DNA of 14,613 nt. Source: a virus. Its lineage: Duplodnaviria > Heunggongvirae > Uroviricota > Caudoviricetes > Crassvirales. The stretch lies in the IMG/VR virus record IMGVR_UViG_3300035698_016817, positions 64,001 to 78,613 of that record; one strand, given 5' to 3'. Both the position numbers and the translations under genes were made by a program. The notes under the pieces are model-generated. The model saw only the letters and a list, made by a program, of their open reading frames with translations, did not search any database and was not told where the DNA came from. This document shows, piece after piece, positions 9,426-12,360 of this stretch (positions are counted from its first letter, which is position 1; every line of letters starts with the position of its first letter).

Positions 9426-9686
9426 TTAAAATTTTAGACCGTCTGCGGTCGGTTCGATTTTTGAATTGCTTGGGTCGTAGCTGTTTGGGTAAGGGTTTGG
9501 TTCATTCAATCTCTTGAGATCCATTCCTAGCCACATAATAGCTTCCTGAAGTTTTGCGATTGAAATTCTTCTTTCTCTAGAACTAGGAAGAGCCTTTAGT
9601 TTTTGCAAATTTTCATCAAGAGAAACTCTGAGTTCCTTGTTTGATATAACATCTGCTTCGATACTTAAATTCATTTTGTCTGACAT
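9426..9686 (-). CDS. Acb2/Tad1-like helical-hairpin protein (candidate immune-signal sponge)
   Basis: 86 aa. PSSRERRISIAKLQEAIMWL matches, from memory, the SRE..A/I..(L/V)(E/Q)EA.MW helix of Tad1/Acb2-family proteins. Confidence 0.6.
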   Translation of the reverse strand: MSDKMNLSIEADVISNKELRVSLDENLQKLKALPSSRERRISIAKLQEAIMWLGMDLKRLNEPNPYPNSYDPSNSKIEPTADGLKF

Positions 9687-9705: not shown

Positions 9706-9713
9706 CAAATATA
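9706..9713 (-). promoter_or_regulatory. Bacteroidota -7 promoter box TATATTTG for the Acb2-like to terL operon
   Basis: Exact TAnnTTTG between tRNA-Tyr and the ATG at 9686. Confidence 0.65.
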
Positions 9714-9725
9714 CAGAAATGTTAT

Positions 9726-9810
9726 TGGTAGGACAGATAGGACTCGAACCTATACAGCGTTAACGTCGGGGTTACAACCCGGTGAGCTCATGCCAGTGCT
9801 CAGCTGTCCT
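9726..9810 (-). tRNA. trnY: tRNA-Tyr(GTA), long variable arm, CCA encoded (block A)
   Basis: Acceptor AGGACAG/CTGTCCT, anticodon loop TTGTAAC, T-arm ATAGG-TTCGAGT-CCTAT. Confidence 0.9.
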
Positions 9811-9815
9811 ATTTG

Positions 9816-9902
9816 CAGAGGATATAGGAATCGAACCCTGCCGCTGTTACACGACCGCACCAAGGTTCAAACCTGGCTGGTCACCATTGACCGCTATCCT
9901 CT
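9816..9902 (-). tRNA. trnS: tRNA-Ser(TGA) (block A)
   Basis: Acceptor AGAGGAT/ATCCTCT, G73, loop TTTGAAC, long variable arm. Confidence 0.88.
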
Positions 9903-9910
9903 ATACTCTG

Positions 9911-9993
9911 CAGAAAACGGAGGCCTTGATCCCCAGTCCAGAACGGACCCAGCTCCTTAGCAGGGAGCGCCTACCCAGGTAGGTTCATCTTCT
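9911..9993 (-). tRNA. trnS: tRNA-Ser(GCT), atypical T-loop (block A)
   Basis: GCTCC-CTGCTAA-GGAGC anticodon arm, long variable arm, T-loop ATCAAGG, G73. Confidence 0.8.
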
Positions 9994-9998
9994 GTGTG

Positions 9999-10069
9999 AG
10001 GTACAAGTTGGATTCGAACCAACGTGACAAGGTTTGCAATCTTGCCCCTATCCTCTCGGTCATTGTACC
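9999..10069 (-). tRNA. trnC: tRNA-Cys(GCA) (block A)
   Basis: Acceptor GGTACAA/TTGTACC, U73, loop TTGCAAA. Confidence 0.9.
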
Positions 10070-10074
10070 TTAAG

Positions 10075-10146
10075 ATCTCCGTACCGGAATCGAACCGATT
10101 TATCCTGCTTACAAAACAAGCGCATCGCCATCAATGCTTACAGAGA
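10075..10146 (-). tRNA. trnT: tRNA-Thr(TGT) (block A)
   Basis: Acceptor TCTCTGT/ACGGAGA, loop TTTGTAA, T-loop TTCGATT. Confidence 0.88.
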
Positions 10147-10153
10147 ATATGTG

Positions 10154-10228
10154 TGCCCAAGGATGGAATCGAACCATCGAAAAACAGAGTTTAAGTCTGT
10201 CGCGTAGTCCTGCGTCCGCCACAAGGGC
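10154..10228 (-). tRNA. trnL: tRNA-Leu(TAA), short variable loop (block A)
   Basis: ACAGA-CTTAAAC-TCTGT, 5-nt variable loop, A73. Confidence 0.85.
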
Positions 10229-10233
10229 CAGTG

Positions 10234-10308
10234 TACTCCCAGCAGGGATCGAACCTGCAAAACTCTCGGGCCTAAACCGAGCGACTTTACCTATTTGCCC
10301 ATAGGAGC
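10234..10308 (-). tRNA. trnL: tRNA-Leu(TAG), short variable loop (block A)
   Basis: CTCGG-TTTAGGC-CCGAG, 6-nt variable loop, A73. Confidence 0.85.
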
Positions 10309-10310
10309 TT

Positions 10311-10348
10311 AAAACAAAAAATCCCCGTCCAAATTAATGAGCGGGGAT
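10311..10348 (-). terminator. Intrinsic terminator / attenuator hairpin A, upstream of tRNA block A
   Basis: ATCCCCG...CGGGGAT stem followed by TTTTTGTTTT on the minus strand. Confidence 0.85.
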
Positions 10349-10374
10349 CCAAAATATTGGGTGTACCTACTCCG

Positions 10375-10425
10375 TCACATGGCTGTGTACGATAACGTGA
10401 GTAGGCAATAACTAATCATTTTCAT
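10375..10425 (-). CDS. Leader peptide A, MKMISYCLLTLSYTAM (16 aa), putative attenuator sensor
   Basis: ATG 4 nt after a TAnnTTTG box. Codons AGT TAT TGC CTA CTC ACG TTA TCG TAC ACA match the downstream Ser/Tyr/Cys/Leu/Thr tRNAs. A terminator follows. Confidence 0.8.
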   Translation of the reverse strand: MKMISYCLLTLSYTAM

Positions 10426-10429
10426 GACG

Positions 10430-10437
10430 CAAATATA
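10430..10437 (-). promoter_or_regulatory. Bacteroidota -7 box TATATTTG for leader A / tRNA block A
   Basis: TATATTTG-CGTC-ATG. Confidence 0.75.
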
Positions 10438-10448
10438 AACATAATAAG

Positions 10449-10522
10449 TGGGACAGGCAGGTTTCGAACCATGCTCCTCAAGTTTTTCAGACTAGCGCTT
10501 CTACCAAGTTAGCTTCTGACCC
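10449..10522 (-). tRNA. trnF: tRNA-Phe(GAA) (block B)
   Basis: Loop CTGAAAA, acceptor GGGTCAG/CTGTCCC with one T.T mismatch, A73. Confidence 0.85.
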
Positions 10523-10526
10523 ATTG

Positions 10527-10595
10527 CGCACCCCCAAGGAATCGAACCTTGTCCTACGGTTTTGGAGACCGTTTGGCCACCATGGCCTGAAGTAC
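10527..10595 (-). tRNA. trnW: tRNA-Trp(CCA) (block B)
   Basis: ACGGT-CTCCAAA-ACCGT, T-arm CAAGG-TTCGATT-CCTTG, G73. Confidence 0.85.
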
Positions 10596-10600
10596 GTTTG

Positions 10601-10674
10601 CTCTAGTGACGGGAGTCGAACCCGCTTTCTTCCGATTAACAGTCGGTTGCTTCCGCCATTTCAGCCTCACTAGA
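10601..10674 (-). tRNA. trnN: tRNA-Asn(GTT) (block B)
   Basis: Acceptor TCTAGTG/CACTAGA, loop CTGTTAA, G73. Confidence 0.9.
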
Positions 10675-10676
10675 TG

Positions 10677-10748
10677 TAGTTCCTCTCGGATTCGAACCGA
10701 GGACGCTTGACATGTAACACCAACGCTCTACCACTGAGCTAAGGAACT
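10677..10748 (-). tRNA. trnV: tRNA-Val(TAC) (block B)
   Basis: Acceptor AGTTCCT/AGGAACT, D-stem GCTC/GAGC, unusual loop GTTACAT. Confidence 0.85.
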
Positions 10749-10753
10749 ATGTG

Positions 10754-10825
10754 TGACCCCGGCGAGTACCGATCTCGCGGCCCTTCCCTTAAAAGGGGAA
10801 TGCTCCACCATTGAGCTACGAGGTC
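10754..10825 (-). tRNA. trnK: tRNA-Lys(TTT), atypical T-loop (block B)
   Basis: TTCCC-CTTTTAA-GGGAA, T-arm GCGAG-ATCGGTA-CTCGC. Confidence 0.85.
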
Positions 10826-10835
10826 TTTTAAACGC

Positions 10836-10866
10836 AAAAAATCCCGCTTACTTTCGTAAACAGGAT
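10836..10866 (-). terminator. Intrinsic terminator / attenuator hairpin B, upstream of tRNA block B
   Basis: ATCCTGTTTAC-GAAA-GTAAGCGGGAT (11 bp, GNRA loop) followed by a T-tract. Confidence 0.85.
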
Positions 10867-10893
10867 CAATCTTATTTGGTATAAGTTCTCTGT

Positions 10894-10941
10894 TTACGTT
10901 TCCGTATCCTTAAAGACCTTATTCCAATTAAGTGTTCTCAC
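10894..10941 (-). CDS. Leader peptide B, MRTLNWNKVFKDTET (15 aa, GTG start), putative attenuator sensor
   Basis: GTG 4 nt after TATGTTTG. The run AAT TGG AAT AAG GTC TTT AAG matches the Asn, Trp, Lys, Val and Phe tRNAs downstream. Confidence 0.78.
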   Translation of the reverse strand: MRTLNWNKVFKDTET

Positions 10942-10945
10942 GGTG

Positions 10946-10953
10946 CAAACATA
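10946..10953 (-). promoter_or_regulatory. Bacteroidota -7 box TATGTTTG for leader B / tRNA block B
   Basis: TATGTTTG-CACC-GTG. Confidence 0.72.
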
Positions 10954-10965
10954 AGCATTTTATTG

Positions 10966-11038
10966 AGACCCTACCAGGATTCAAACCTGGATACCTCGGG
11001 TAGAAGCCGAGTGCTCTGTTCAGTTGAGCTATAAGGCC
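10966..11038 (-). tRNA. trnR: tRNA-Arg(TCT) (block C)
   Basis: CTCGG-CTTCTAC-CCGAG, acceptor GGCCTTA/TAGGGTC. Confidence 0.88.
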
Positions 11039-11042
11039 GTTG

Positions 11043-11114
11043 TACGCAACAAAGGATTCGAACCTTCATCTCCGAGTCCGTAGCTCAGCGTGTTGTCCGT
11101 TACACTAATCGCGC
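11043..11114 (-). tRNA. trnR: tRNA-Arg(ACG) (block C)
   Basis: CTGAG-CTACGGA-CTCGG, D-stem GTGT/ACAC. Confidence 0.85.
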
Positions 11115-11118
11115 GTAT

Positions 11119-11196
11119 TGGGGTGTAAGAGGGGACTCGAACCCCCTAATGACCAACTCCACAGATTGGCGCTTCGACCACTTCAGCTTCCTACAC
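11119..11196 (-). tRNA. trnH: tRNA-His(GTG), CCA encoded, position -1 is T (block C)
   Basis: CCAAT-CTGTGGA-GTTGG, acceptor GTGTAGG/CTTACAC, C73. Confidence 0.88.
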
Positions 11197-11198
11197 AG

Positions 11199-11269
11199 TT
11201 CCCAGAGAAGGATTCGAACCTCCGTGACCGGCTTCAAAAACCAGCATCCTGCCGCTAGATGATCCGGGA
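11199..11269 (-). tRNA. trnQ: tRNA-Gln(TTG) (block C)
   Basis: CTGGT-TTTTGAA-GCCGG, acceptor TCCCGGA/TCTGGGA. Confidence 0.85.
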
Positions 11270-11275
11270 ATTAAG

Positions 11276-11347
11276 TACCGAGGGAAGGATTTGAACCTTC
11301 GACCGCTTACGTATCAGGCAAGTGCTCTACCGCTGAGCTACCCAGGT
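11276..11347 (-). tRNA. trnI: tRNA-Ile(GAT) (block C)
   Basis: CTTGC-CTGATAC-GTAAG, D-stem GCTC/GAGC, A73. Confidence 0.88.
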
Positions 11348-11355
11348 ATATTTGT

Positions 11356-11449
11356 TTAAGGTCTGCATGTCTCCCACGGTTCATTGGTGGCGGACGGCAT
11401 GCACTTAAAGAGCTTCTTTTTCCTTGAAACCTTTCACTCTTTACCTTAA
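11356..11449 (-). ncRNA. Unknown structured element (three-way junction) between tRNA-Ala and tRNA-Ile
   Basis: Closing stem TTAAGGT/ACCTTAA. Arms AAAGAGT/GCTCTTT and TGCATG/CATGCA, the latter with an inner CCAC/GTGG. Confidence 0.45.
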
Positions 11450-11450
11450 G

Positions 11451-11520
11451 TGGAGTACGAGGGAGTCGAACCCTAACATTTTCGTTGCAAACGAAATGAC
11501 CTGCCATCGGCATCGCCCCC
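11451..11520 (-). tRNA. trnA: tRNA-Ala(TGC), irregular acceptor stem (block C)
   Basis: TTTCG-TTTGCAA-CGAAA. G3:U70 and A73 retained; the lower acceptor stem is mismatched or bulged. Confidence 0.75.
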
Positions 11521-11532
11521 ATATTCTTTCTG

Positions 11533-11605
11533 TTGGCCCGGTGGGTCACGATCCCACTCTCTTCTTGTTATGAGCAAGATGCTTTCCCCGTTAAGCTACG
11601 CGCCG
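11533..11605 (-). tRNA. tRNA with CAT anticodon, probably Ile2 (lysidine) rather than Met (block C)
   Basis: TCTTG-CTCATAA-CAAGA, C1.A72 mismatch, atypical T-loop ATCGTGA. The Ile2 identity is inferred from the ATA codon in leader C. Confidence 0.75.
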
Positions 11606-11615
11606 ATATGCTATG

Positions 11616-11689
11616 TACCCCGTATGGGATTCGAACCCATGTCCTTCTAGTTGAAAACCAGACGTCCTGAGCCTCTAGACCAACGGGAC
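11616..11689 (-). tRNA. trnE: tRNA-Glu(TTC) (block C)
   Basis: TCTGG-TTTTCAA-CTAGA, T-arm ATGGG-TTCGAAT-CCCAT. Confidence 0.88.
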
Positions 11690-11695
11690 TTAATA

Positions 11696-11772
11696 TGGTT
11701 GCGGGACTGGGATTCGAACCCAGGACCTCTAGGTTATGAGTCTAGCGAGCTGGCCAACTGCTCTATCCCGCA
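11696..11772 (-). tRNA. trnM: tRNA-Met(CAT), fMet-like scaffold but without the three G:C anticodon-stem pairs; CCA encoded (block C)
   Basis: TGCGGGA/TCCCGCA, D-stem GAGC/GCTC, loop CTCATAA. Confidence 0.85.
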
Positions 11773-11779
11773 ATAAATG

Positions 11780-11852
11780 TGCAGTAGGTCAGACTCGAAC
11801 TGACAACCTAGTGCTTGGAAGGCACCCGCTCTGGCGTTGGAGCTACTACTGC
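11780..11852 (-). tRNA. trnG: tRNA-Gly(TCC) (block C)
   Basis: GGTGC-CTTCCAA-GCACT, acceptor GCAGTAG/CTACTGC, A73. Confidence 0.85.
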
Positions 11853-11857
11853 ATTAA

Positions 11858-11990
11858 AAAAGCATGGTGAGGTAAGTTGCCTCTCCTTATGATTGCGTTG
11901 TGGTTGTCTTAACGGTTGTCCTCTGGTGGACGGTCGTCCTTAAGTTAGGCCCTTGCCTTACAATACGCAATATATACTCACTCATGCTTT
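11858..11990 (-). ncRNA. Unknown rod-like structured element between tRNA-Asp and tRNA-Gly, containing a Thr-rich 32-codon ORF (11887-11985)
   Basis: Nested stems AAAGCATG/CATGCTTT, GTGAG/CTCAC, ATTGCGT/ACGCAAT, CTTAA/TTAAG and GGAC/GTCC. Confidence 0.5.
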
Positions 11991-11993
11991 AAG

Positions 11994-12066
11994 CGGTCCT
12001 AGACGGGATCGAACCGACTACCTTCCCGCAGACAACGGGCTATCCTACCATTAGGACCTTAGGACC
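11994..12066 (-). tRNA. trnD: tRNA-Asp(GTC) (block C)
   Basis: Acceptor GGTCCTA/TAGGACC, G73, loop TTGTCTG. Confidence 0.85.
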
Positions 12067-12073
12067 AATATTA

Positions 12074-12123
12074 AGAGCGAAGAGGTCATGAACCCCTTTA
12101 AGTGCTGCAGCACCGAACACTCT
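12074..12123 (-). ncRNA. 50-nt tRNA-like minihelix (acceptor-like stem plus T-arm-like hairpin; no anticodon arm)
   Basis: AGAGTG/CGCTCT, GTGC-TGCA-GCAC, AAGGGG-TTCATGA-CCTCTT. Confidence 0.4.
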
Positions 12124-12125
12124 AG

Positions 12126-12198
12126 TATGGGAAGCAGGGCTCGAACCTACGATCTCCGCGTCCCAAACGCGGCGCGATACCAACTTCGCTATTCCCAT
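12126..12198 (-). tRNA. trnP: tRNA-Pro(TGG), first tRNA of block C
   Basis: CCGCG-TTTGGGA-CGCGG, acceptor ATGGGAA/TTCCCAT, A73. Confidence 0.9.
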
Positions 12199-12203
12199 GT
12201 AAC

Positions 12204-12236
12204 AAAAAAGCCCCTCTCTATTCGAGAAGGGCTTTT
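12204..12236 (-). terminator. Intrinsic terminator / attenuator hairpin C, upstream of tRNA block C
   Basis: AAAAGCCCTTCTC-GAATA-GAGAGGGGCTTTTTT. Confidence 0.88.
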
Positions 12237-12257
12237 GATTTTTTAATGTCTATGTCT

Positions 12258-12344
12258 TTATTTTCTCGAATACATAGAGTTCCCTTTCGTCCCGCCATTG
12301 GCGCGATCCATAATCGGTTGTTCTATATGTCTTCCTGTATTCAT
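12258..12344 (-). CDS. Leader peptide C, MNTGRHIEQPIMDRANGGTKGNSMYSRK (28 aa), putative attenuator sensor
   Basis: Codons 4-15 (GGA AGA CAT ATA GAA CAA CCG ATT ATG GAT CGC GCC) map one-to-one onto the 12 tRNAs of block C. The last codons contain the antiterminator strand. Confidence 0.82.
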   Translation of the reverse strand: MNTGRHIEQPIMDRANGGTKGNSMYSRK

Positions 12345-12352
12345 TGAAGCCT

Positions 12353-12360
12353 CAAAGCTA
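12353..12360 (-). promoter_or_regulatory. Bacteroidota -7 box TAGCTTTG for leader C / tRNA block C
   Basis: TAnnTTTG 8 nt before the leader ATG, overlapping the upstream TAG stop. A TTG lies 20 nt upstream (-33-like). Confidence 0.6.

What the first reader, a model, noticed from the sequence alone, without database searches (positions are those of the whole stretch)
9726..12360. Phage tRNA array gated by three leader-peptide attenuators that spell out the tRNAs they control
Seen in sequence: 24 tRNAs in three blocks. Each block is preceded by a TAnnTTTG promoter, a 15-28 codon ORF, a competing RNA pairing and an intrinsic terminator. Each leader has an uninterrupted run of codons for the downstream block's amino acids only, and the run covers all of them: GRHIEQPIMDRA for block C, NWNKVFK for block B, SYCLLTLSYT for block A. 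Crude uniform-amino-acid null without multiple-testing correction: 0.5^12, 0.25^7 and 0.25^10. Established: ribosome-mediated attenuation (trp, his, thr, pheST leaders) uses this 1:2/2:3/3:4 logic, and phages carry tRNAs that counter host tRNA-cleaving defences (PrrC, VapC, PARIS/AriB). Inference: loss of any one tRNA stalls the ribosome, the antiterminator forms and the block that supplies that tRNA is transcribed. This would be a multiplexed tRNA-pool sensor, or demand-driven anti-defence. I know of no published description but could not search.
Basis: partly seen in the sequence, partly recalled or inferred. Interest (0 to 1): 0.96.

Follow-up and report, generated by a model that had tools for sequence, protein, structure and literature searches.

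The report
Codon-matched leader attenuators gating phage tRNAs
In this crAss-like phage each of three blocks of tRNA genes sits behind a tiny reading frame, written in exactly the codons those tRNAs read, and a switchable transcription stop, so the phage probably makes a set of tRNAs only when ribosomes run short of them; I found no published description of such control for tRNA genes.

Summary
On the minus strand, 9726-12198, lie 24 tRNA genes (22 solid, 2 weak) for all 20 amino acids. Three promoter-box / short-ORF / terminator cassettes split them 12/5/7. Each ORF holds an uninterrupted run that uses only, and all of, the amino acids of the block behind it. Of 46,558,512 possible 10/5/5 partitions of the amino acids, only the true one is spelled out (p = 2e-8).

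Cellulophaga phages Calle_1 and phi4:1, Tenacibaculum phage Gundel_1 and uncultured viral contigs (L139, L147, L158) group their tRNAs differently, and their leaders change accordingly, down to Arg, Ser and Leu isoacceptors.

Folding with a simulated ribosome shows that a stall inside the run frees an antiterminator in cassettes A and B, and in 8 of 11 cassettes overall. Cassette C is ambiguous.

Best reading: classical ribosome-mediated attenuation applied to tRNA genes as a multiplexed feedback on tRNA supply. The anti-defence role is untested.

Nine literature searches found no description. Earlier notes of this scan report the same design on other phage DNA. There is no expression data, so the mechanism is inferred.

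The parts
12353..12360 (-). Cassette C: sigma-A-type -7 box TAGCTTTG, 8 nt before the leader start. It overlaps the stop codon of the upstream ORF.
   Evidence: Conserved in relative L004. In Flavobacterium the box lies at -12..-5 (PMC9723704), which predicts a 4-nt 5' UTR.
12258..12344 (-). Leader ORF C, 28 codons. The sensor run GRHIEQPIMDRA is at 12300-12335.
   Evidence: The homologous ORF is kept in frame in L004, with a 3-nt indel.
12263..12272 (-). Cassette C: 10-nt stretch inside the last leader codons, perfectly complementary to the 5' arm and loop of the terminator. Candidate antiterminator strand.
   Evidence: Sequence checked; pairing seen. One compensatory change in L004, read by eye from the alignment. 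The ribosome-mask model is not decisive for this cassette.
12202..12232 (-). Cassette C: intrinsic terminator (9-bp GC-rich stem, 5-nt loop, -16.2 kcal/mol) with U-tract. It ends 3 nt before tRNA-Pro.
10965..12198 (-). tRNA block C: Pro, Asp, Gly, Met(CAT, initiator-like), Glu, Met/Ile2(CAT), Ala(weak), Ile, Gln, His, Arg-ACG, Arg-TCT. Three structured internal spacers lie at 12067-12124, 11853-11992 and 11348-11451.
10946..10953 (-). Cassette B: -7 box TATGTTTG, exactly 4 nt before the GTG start. Predicted leaderless transcript.
   Evidence: Box position from PMC9723704.
10894..10941 (-). Leader ORF B, 15 codons, GTG start. The sensor run NWNKVFK is at 10909-10929. The antiterminator strand CGTAAACAG at 10890-10898 spans the stop codon.
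10833..10867 (-). Cassette B: intrinsic terminator (11-12 bp stem, GAAA loop, about -14 kcal/mol) with U-tract.
10448..10825 (-). tRNA block B: Lys, Val, Asn, Trp, Phe.
10430..10437 (-). Cassette A: -7 box TATATTTG, exactly 4 nt before the ATG. Predicted leaderless transcript.
10375..10425 (-). Leader ORF A, 16 codons. The sensor run SYCLLTLSYT is at 10384-10413. A strong 1:2 hairpin (10364-10407) covers the sensor codons and the stop. The antiterminator strand GAGTAGG is at 10366-10372.
10313..10349 (-). Cassette A: intrinsic terminator (7-bp GC stem with an inner 3-bp helix, about -13 kcal/mol) with U-tract.
   Evidence: The simple scan missed it because of its 14-nt loop.
9726..10308 (-). 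tRNA block A: Leu-TAG, Leu-TAA, Thr, Cys, Ser-GCT-like (degenerate), Ser-TGA, Tyr.

Best explanation
Three ribosome-mediated transcription attenuators each gate one block of phage tRNA genes.

Host RNA polymerase starts at a Bacteroidota-type TAnnTTTG promoter. The transcript begins at, or 4 nt before, the start codon of a 15-28 codon leader, so a ribosome loads at once.

The leader contains one uninterrupted run of codons that samples every tRNA of the block downstream. If all those codons are decoded quickly, the ribosome reaches the end of the leader. There it covers the RNA strand around the stop codon that could pair with the 5' arm of the terminator. The terminator then forms about 27 nt further on, and the tRNA block is not transcribed.

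If any one of the sampled aminoacyl-tRNAs is scarce, the ribosome stalls inside the run. That strand stays free and pairs with the terminator arm as an antiterminator, and the polymerase reads into the block. The result is a negative feedback that holds the supply of each set of tRNAs to demand.

Shown by sequence and computation: the anatomy, the codon-to-tRNA match, its covariation across phages, and the alternative pairings.

Inferred: translation of the leaders, the direction of the switch in vivo, and the physiological trigger.
For: 1. The match of leaders to blocks is unique. Only 1 of 46,558,512 partitions is spelled by the three spacers. Each leader matches only its own block: longest runs are 12, 7 and 10 on the diagonal and 1-2 off it.

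2. Covariation in independent phages with other groupings.
- Calle_1: a 16-residue run of Tyr/Ser/Asn/Trp/Phe/Cys codons, a 14-residue run of Pro/Glu/Gln/His/Leu/Arg codons, and a third for the Ala..Ile block.
- phi4:1: three cassettes.
- Gundel_1: two cassettes.
- Viral contig L158: runs for Pro Glu Tyr Gln Ser Leu Phe, and a 19-residue run for a 14-tRNA block.
- Permutations reached the observed sum of runs 0 times in 200,000 for the window, Calle_1 and phi4:1, and 20 times in 200,000 for Gundel_1.
- An unbiased scanner that picks ORF and block size itself flags these cassettes, all with terminators. It finds nothing convincing in four phages of Xanthomonas, Stenotrophomonas, Streptomyces and Salmonella.

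3. Anticodon level. 120 of 128 run codons are readable by a block tRNA, and 30 of 34 Leu/Ser/Arg codons come from the right box. Arg codon choice follows the Arg isoacceptor present.

4. Signs of translation. In most cassettes (window A and B, Gundel_1, Calle_1, the first phi4:1 leader) the start codon lies 4 nt after the box, which is the mapped +1 in Flavobacterium (PMC9723704). The frame is kept through a 3-nt indel in L004. The distance from the stop codon to the terminator arm is 23-30 nt in 10 of 11 cassettes.

5. The switch. With a 28-nt ribosome mask, the terminator 5' arm pairs upstream only when the A site is at codons 3-11 in B (run 5-11) and 4-14 in A (run 5-14). The same pattern holds in 8 of 11 cassettes. 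The summed contrast is 3.06 against 0.18 +/- 0.61 in shuffles, reached in 0 of 60.

6. Host competence. Leader-peptide attenuation is reported for amino-acid operons in Flavobacterium (PMC9723704). phi38:1 relies on host RNA polymerase (PMC5335546).

7. The DNA is natural. Identical contigs bridging the cassettes occur in several other salt-lake metagenome runs.
Against: There are no transcript, Term-seq, Ribo-seq or reporter data for any of these cassettes.

Cassette C shows no stall-dependent contrast in the model (29 of 60 shuffles do as well). Two alternative upstream partners keep the terminator arm paired in nearly every state. Calle_3 and phi41_3 are also flat.

Leader B starts with GTG at the predicted 5' end, a weak start for a leaderless mRNA.

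At equilibrium the full-length RNAs always fold into the terminator, so the switch must be kinetic.

In relative L004 the leader survives although only tRNA-Pro is left behind it. The leader can therefore persist without its block, at least for a while.

The TAnnTTTG box is not enriched in the window as a whole.

Two of the sampled tRNAs, Ala and Ser-GCT, are weak predictions.
Confidence: 0.78

Rival explanations
1. The leaders are translated and codon-matched, but the switch runs the other way or through another route. For example, finishing the leader might be needed for read-through, or stalls might uncouple the ribosome and cause termination. That would give a feed-forward check that the tRNAs work, not a negative feedback.
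For: Cassettes win_C, Calle_3 and phi41_3 show no drop of antiterminator pairing at the stop codon. In several cassettes (Calle_1, Gundel_1 and 2, phi41_2) the ribosome-free RNA already favours the antiterminator, so the designs are not uniform.
Against: In 8 of 11 cassettes the modelled antiterminator is available during stalls in the run and is blocked when the ribosome sits at the end of the ORF. The 23-30 nt spacing from stop codon to terminator arm fits masking by a terminating ribosome. Positive feedback on tRNA supply has no evident benefit.
Confidence: 0.08
2. The codon runs act as RNA and are not translated. They would be a row of 'specifier' triplets that pair with anticodons of the tRNAs (T-box-like), or a decoy for tRNA-binding factors, and that binding would decide termination.
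For: The runs match at anticodon level. T-box leaders show that direct tRNA sensing on a nascent RNA is possible (established knowledge).
Against: The triplets are contiguous in one frame that opens with a start codon at the predicted +1 and closes with a stop at a fixed distance from the terminator. A 3-nt indel keeps the frame in L004. No T-box or other Rfam family is found at gathering score. No stem-I-like scaffold was seen.
Confidence: 0.04
3. There is no regulatory link. The terminators are plain insulators or leaky stops between tRNA transcription units, and the small ORFs are chance frames or small proteins with another role.
For: Terminators and short ORFs are common in phage intergenic DNA. 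The promoter box alone is not enriched. In L004 the leader persists without its array.
Against: p = 2e-8 for the window. The same correspondence recurs with different groupings in at least four other phage lineages. The terminator lies between the promoter and the tRNAs, with no room for a second promoter (4-10 nt), so simple insulation would silence the block.
Confidence: 0.03

Closest known systems
Multivalent leader-peptide attenuators of enterobacterial amino-acid operons (ilvGMEDA leader: Ile/Val/Leu; thr leader: Thr/Ile; also trpL, hisL, leuL, pheL)
   Same: A promoter-proximal short ORF with a run of regulatory codons, an intrinsic terminator before the structural genes, and mutually exclusive antiterminator and terminator pairings set by ribosome position. 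Cassettes A and B also have a 1:2 hairpin that gives termination without translation.
   Different: The genes controlled are tRNA genes, not biosynthetic enzymes, so the sensed molecule is itself the product. The run samples 5-10 different amino acids, about one codon per tRNA, rather than repeating one to three amino acids. The transcripts are predicted to be leaderless. The setting is a phage of Bacteroidota. There is no sequence relation: Rfam Thr_leader and Phe_leader score 21-24 bits against a cut-off of 55.
pheST (pheM leader) attenuator of E. coli
   Same: Ribosome-mediated attenuation applied to a gene of the translation apparatus and sensing a charged tRNA (established knowledge).
   Different: It controls a synthetase, senses one amino acid, and is not multiplexed.
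T-box riboswitches
   Same: They sense the tRNA pool and decide between terminator and antiterminator upstream of translation-related genes.
   Different: T-boxes bind uncharged tRNA directly through a structured stem I and the T-box sequence, without a ribosome. No such element is found here. Here the reading is done by a translating ribosome.
Codon-matched leaders before tRNA blocks in Cellulophaga phages Calle_1, phi38:1 and phi4:1, Tenacibaculum phage Gundel_1, and viral contigs L139, L147, L158
   Same: The same anatomy: TAnnTTTG box, usually 4 nt, start codon (often M-K-T), run matched to the block, a terminator 23-30 nt after the stop, then the tRNAs.
   Different: Other groupings of tRNAs and unrelated leader sequences. 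In GenBank two of the phi4:1 leaders appear to be the small ORFs annotated as hypothetical proteins gp075 and gp076, judged by position and length. I found no functional description.

Membership tests
Ribosome-mediated (leader-peptide) transcription attenuator | Short ORF close to the transcription start, upstream of the regulated genes | tested here: met
   ORFs of 28, 15 and 16 codons start 8, 4 and 4 nt after a TAnnTTTG box. The box position of -12..-5 comes from PMC9723704.
Ribosome-mediated (leader-peptide) transcription attenuator | Regulatory codons cognate to what the operon supplies | tested here: met
   The runs use only, and all of, the amino acids of the downstream block. All run codons in the window are readable by a block tRNA. 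The match covaries in other phages.
Ribosome-mediated (leader-peptide) transcription attenuator | Intrinsic terminator between the leader ORF and the regulated genes | tested here: met
   Hairpins of -16.2, about -14 and about -13 kcal/mol with U-tracts lie 4-10 nt before the first tRNA.
Ribosome-mediated (leader-peptide) transcription attenuator | Antiterminator pairing that excludes the terminator and depends on ribosome position | tested here: inconclusive
   Met in the model for B (9-nt perfect complement, free only with the A site at codons 3-11) and for A (codons 4-14). For C a 10-nt perfect complement exists, but the model shows no dependence on position.
Ribosome-mediated (leader-peptide) transcription attenuator | The leader is translated, and read-through responds to supply of the cognate charged tRNA | not testable with these tools
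   No RNA run holds the stretch. This needs Term-seq, Ribo-seq or reporters.
T-box riboswitch (RF00230) | Stem I with specifier loop and conserved T-box antiterminator sequence | tested here: not met
   No T-box match in the Rfam scans at gathering score or at E up to 5.
Rfam Thr_leader / Phe_leader families | Score at or above the family gathering threshold | tested here: not met
   23.5 and 21 bits against a cut-off of 55 at 12201-12279. The likeness is probably due to the terminator only.

The most novel reading that the evidence does not exclude
The cassettes are an alarm-and-repair circuit against host anticodon nucleases or phage-induced tRNA loss. About one codon per tRNA is sampled, down to isoacceptors. 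Cleavage or loss of any single tRNA species would therefore stall the leader ribosome and switch on exactly the block that replaces it. The design would be a general rule for tRNA arrays of Bacteroidota phages, and, by unverified earlier notes of this scan, of Caulobacter and giant phages too.
Probability: 0.25. Interest if true: 0.95.

Novelty: new variant of a known kind. Interest (0 to 1): 0.88.

Why it matters
Regulation of tRNA genes is thought of as promoter-level (growth-rate and stringent control). Phage tRNA arrays are usually treated as constitutive codon-usage or counter-defence cargo.

A ribosome-read 'sampler' leader that names each tRNA of its operon would be a direct feedback from decoding speed to tRNA synthesis. 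With up to 10-12 amino acids in one leader, it would be the most multiplexed attenuator known.

It gives a sequence-only way to predict which tRNA genes form one regulatory unit, and to recognise weak or odd tRNA genes from the leader. It annotates many 'hypothetical' mini-ORFs in phage genomes. It makes the long-standing question of why and when phages express their tRNAs directly testable in cultivable Cellulophaga systems.

Tried and rejected
- Close relatives for covariation. The leader-C DNA pattern in viral contigs found only one contig. The 255-aa neighbour protein has no relatives. A terminase-profile scan of metagenome contigs gave 80 loci at 55-63% identity, none with a tRNA array. 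The only relative with the leader, L004, has lost the array.
- Sequencing runs. No RNA holder is listed. DNA contigs of four other runs are identical over the leaders, so they give no natural variants.
- Equilibrium folding of the full cassettes always gives the terminator. It says nothing about a kinetic switch, so I used transcripts truncated before the 3' arm.
- The 140-nt gap inside block C was considered as a fourth, decayed cassette. It has no matching ORF (p = 0.59), and it folds as a closed structure.
- Rfam gives only sub-threshold likeness to the Thr and Phe leaders.
- Phage Lak-B1 gave no testable spacer.
- The claim in earlier notes that Caulobacter phiCbK-like phages have the same design was not checked. 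No hit id was at hand and whole-genome fetches were too costly.
- Whether bacterial chromosomal tRNA operons carry such leaders was not tested.
- Literature. Nine searches found no description of attenuation of tRNA genes. The library lacks most subscription journals, so absence is not proof.

Full report
**What is there**

All features lie on the minus strand. ARAGORN finds 21 tRNA genes between 9726 and 12198. Rfam adds Phe-GAA. Relaxed settings add a weak Ala-TGC and a degenerate Ser-GCT-like gene. Together the 24 genes cover all 20 amino acids. The window is the last 14.6 kb of a 78.6-kb phage contig with 40% G+C. Terminase, portal and endolysin genes lie nearby.

Gaps of exactly 139 nt split the array into blocks of 12, 5 and 7 genes, and a 159-nt stretch precedes the first block. 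Each of these three stretches holds, in order:
- a TAnnTTTG box;
- a short ORF of 28, 15 or 16 codons;
- a GC-rich hairpin with a U-tract that ends 4-10 nt before the first tRNA.

Block C has three further internal gaps of 58, 140 and 104 nt. They fold into closed, unusually stable structures and carry no matching ORF.

**Is it more than chance?**

Each ORF holds one uninterrupted run made only of the amino acids of the block behind it, and each run covers all of them. The runs have 12 residues for the 10 amino acids of block C, 7 for the 5 of block B, and 10 for the 5 of block A.

I used a null that keeps the sequences and shuffles which amino acids belong to which block, and I allowed any of the three sense frames of each spacer. 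The exact-cover probabilities are then 1.6e-4, 3.8e-3 and 3.7e-3. Exact enumeration shows that only 1 of the 46,558,512 possible 10/5/5 partitions, the true one, is spelled by all three spacers. Each leader matches only its own block.

At codon level every run codon in the window is readable by a tRNA of its block. Both Ser boxes, both Leu boxes and both Arg boxes are sampled where the block has both isoacceptors.

One claim needs trimming. The CAT tRNA at 11696-11772 looks like an initiator, at 76% identity to the equivalent phi4:1 gene. The other CAT tRNA is either elongator Met or Ile2. The '12 codons for 12 tRNAs' bijection is therefore secure for about 11 of the 12.

Close relatives were of no help. 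The only one with the leader (L004, terminase 71% identical) has lost the array. Behind a conserved, in-frame leader and terminator it keeps only tRNA-Pro and a fused tRNA remnant. Eighty more distant relatives have no array.

Unrelated phages of Flavobacteriia turned out to carry the same design with other groupings of tRNAs.
- In Cellulophaga phage Calle_1, the block Tyr Ser Ser Asn Trp Phe Cys follows a leader with a 16-residue run of exactly those six amino acids. The block Pro Glu Gln His Leu Arg follows a 14-residue run of those six. The first block follows a run of its own set.
- Phage phi4:1 has three such cassettes.
- Tenacibaculum phage Gundel_1 has two.
- A search of viral contigs with only the promoter-plus-start pattern gave 80 sites. 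Five were followed by tRNAs, and all five have matching leaders. They include contig L158, with yet another partition: a run for Pro Glu Tyr Gln Ser Leu Phe, and a 19-residue run for a 14-tRNA block.

Leu therefore appears in the leader with Thr, Cys, Ser and Tyr here, but with Pro, Glu, Gln, His and Arg in Calle_1 and phi4:1. Asn, Trp and Phe go with Lys and Val here, but with Tyr, Ser and Cys there. Permutation tests reached the observed sum of runs 0 times in 200,000 for the window, Calle_1 and phi4:1, and 20 times in 200,000 for Gundel_1.

I wrote a scanner that chooses ORF and block size by itself and calibrates by label permutation. It flags these cassettes, all with terminators. It finds nothing convincing in tRNA regions of Xanthomonas, Stenotrophomonas, Streptomyces and Salmonella phages. 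The design is therefore not universal, and the method does not fire at random. Two huge uncultured phages give suggestive hits.

Over 11 cassettes, 120 of 128 run codons and 30 of 34 Leu/Ser/Arg codons fit a tRNA of the block. Arg codons follow the Arg isoacceptor present.

**How it most likely works**

In most cassettes (window A and B, Gundel_1, Calle_1, the first phi4:1 leader) the start codon lies 4 nt after the box. In Flavobacterium the sigma-A box TAnnTTTG occupies -12 to -5 (PMC9723704). The start codon is therefore the predicted first base of the transcript, although leaderless mRNAs make up only 5.5% in that organism. Cassette C would have a 4-nt leader.

The distance from the stop codon to the terminator 5' arm is 25, 28 and 27 nt in the window, and 23-30 nt in 10 of the 11 cassettes.

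I folded each transcript up to the terminator loop, with a 28-nt stretch held single-stranded at each possible ribosome position.
- In cassette B, the 9-nt strand around the stop codon pairs with the terminator arm only when the A site is at codons 3-11. The run is codons 5-11.
- In cassette A, the antiterminator forms only with the A site at codons 4-14. The run is codons 5-14.
- Without a ribosome, both leaders fold on themselves and leave the terminator free. This would also stop read-through coming from the block upstream (inference).

The same pattern holds in 8 of 11 cassettes. The summed contrast between a stall in the run and a ribosome at the stop codon is 3.06, against 0.18 +/- 0.61 for shuffled leaders, reached in 0 of 60 shuffles.

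Cassette C is the exception. It has a perfect 10-nt complement between its last codons and the terminator, with one compensatory change in L004. A second upstream partner keeps the terminator arm paired in nearly all modelled states.

At equilibrium the complete RNAs always form the terminator, so any switch is kinetic, as in the classical cases.

Leader-peptide attenuation is reported for amino-acid operons in Flavobacterium (PMC9723704). phi38:1 depends on host RNA polymerase (PMC5335546).

I conclude that these are ribosome-mediated attenuators that feed decoding speed back onto tRNA synthesis. I hold this with confidence 0.78. Translation, the direction of the switch in vivo and the natural trigger are inferred.

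**Comparison with what is known**

The logic is that of the trp, his, thr and ilv leaders and the pheST leader. The closest are the multivalent ilvGMEDA and thr leaders.

The differences are these:
- the controlled genes are tRNAs, so the product is itself what is sensed;
- the run samples many amino acids, about one codon per tRNA, rather than repeating one;
- the transcripts are predicted to be leaderless;
- the setting is a phage.

It is not a T-box and not a member of any Rfam leader family.

**Novelty**

Nine full-text searches found no description of attenuation of tRNA genes or of phage tRNA arrays. The library lacks most subscription journals. By position and length, two of the phi4:1 leaders correspond to the GenBank hypothetical proteins gp075 and gp076.

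This scan has noted the same design before on other DNA: a roughly 330-kb phage, giant-phage fragments, phiCbK-like Caulobacter phages and a marine Bacteroidota phage. Those are unchecked AI notes and I did not verify them. My own support comes from the phages named above.

I class the finding as a new variant of a known kind.

**The natural status of the DNA**

Contigs identical to the window and bridging the cassettes occur in several other salt-lake metagenome runs.

**Verdict**

The anti-defence purpose remains open. Interest is 0.88.

Noticed in passing
window 12067-12124, 11853-11992, 11348-11451 (minus strand): The three internal gaps of block C fold into closed structures whose ends pair with each other. 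Energies are -17.6, -36.9 and -26.3 kcal/mol, with z = -2.2, -3.6 and -2.5. They hold no codon-matched ORF. They may be processing spacers or small RNAs; their function is unknown.
   Followed up: partly
L004 7450-7790 (IMGVR_UViG_3300020048_000077): The nearest relative keeps the cassette-C promoter, leader (with Lys and Asn intrusions in the run) and terminator. Behind them it has only tRNA-Pro and a remnant in which the 5' part of the initiator-like tRNA is joined to the 3' end of tRNA-Tyr. The array was deleted by recombination between tRNA genes. The whole 89-kb phage has three tRNAs.
   Followed up: partly
11 cassettes in the window, L001, L003, L089: The distance from the leader stop codon to the first base of the terminator 5' arm is 23-30 nt in 10 of 11 cassettes, although the sequences are unrelated. 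This suggests a mechanical constraint set by the terminating ribosome.
   Followed up: partly
L003 (Tenacibaculum phage Gundel_1), between the second leader-terminator and tRNA-Pro: An HNH endonuclease gene sits between the attenuator terminator and the tRNA block it should control. The first Gundel_1 leader also contains Tyr and Cys codons, while the block has no Tyr gene and only an odd tRNA with an 8-nt anticodon loop. The leader may record a former block composition.
   Followed up: no
window 9910-9989 and 11452-11520 (minus strand): The Ser-GCT-like and Ala-TGC genes score poorly: an atypical T-arm for the first, mismatches in the acceptor stem for the second. Yet each has its codon (AGT, GCC) in the matching leader run. 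Leaders may help to recognise aberrant phage tRNA genes.
   Followed up: partly
window 9706-9713 (minus strand): A further TATATTTG box lies directly after tRNA-Tyr and about 20 nt before the ATG of the next gene (9426-9686). It is probably the promoter of the downstream late genes.
   Followed up: no
L214 (LR756501, 735 kb) and L215 (LR745206, 635 kb): Two huge uncultured phages show suggestive cassettes with strong terminators: a Gln/Glu/Met run before Glu Met Gln Gln (p = 0.006), a Tyr/Glu run before Glu x3 Tyr Glu Tyr, and an Ile/Ala/Gly run before Ile Gly Met Gly Ala.
   Followed up: partly
L089 (Cellulophaga phage phi4:1), annotated CDS gp075 and gp076: Two ORFs annotated as hypothetical proteins (39 and 33 codons) between tRNA blocks correspond, by position and length, to the leader ORFs of the second and third cassettes.
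   Followed up: yes
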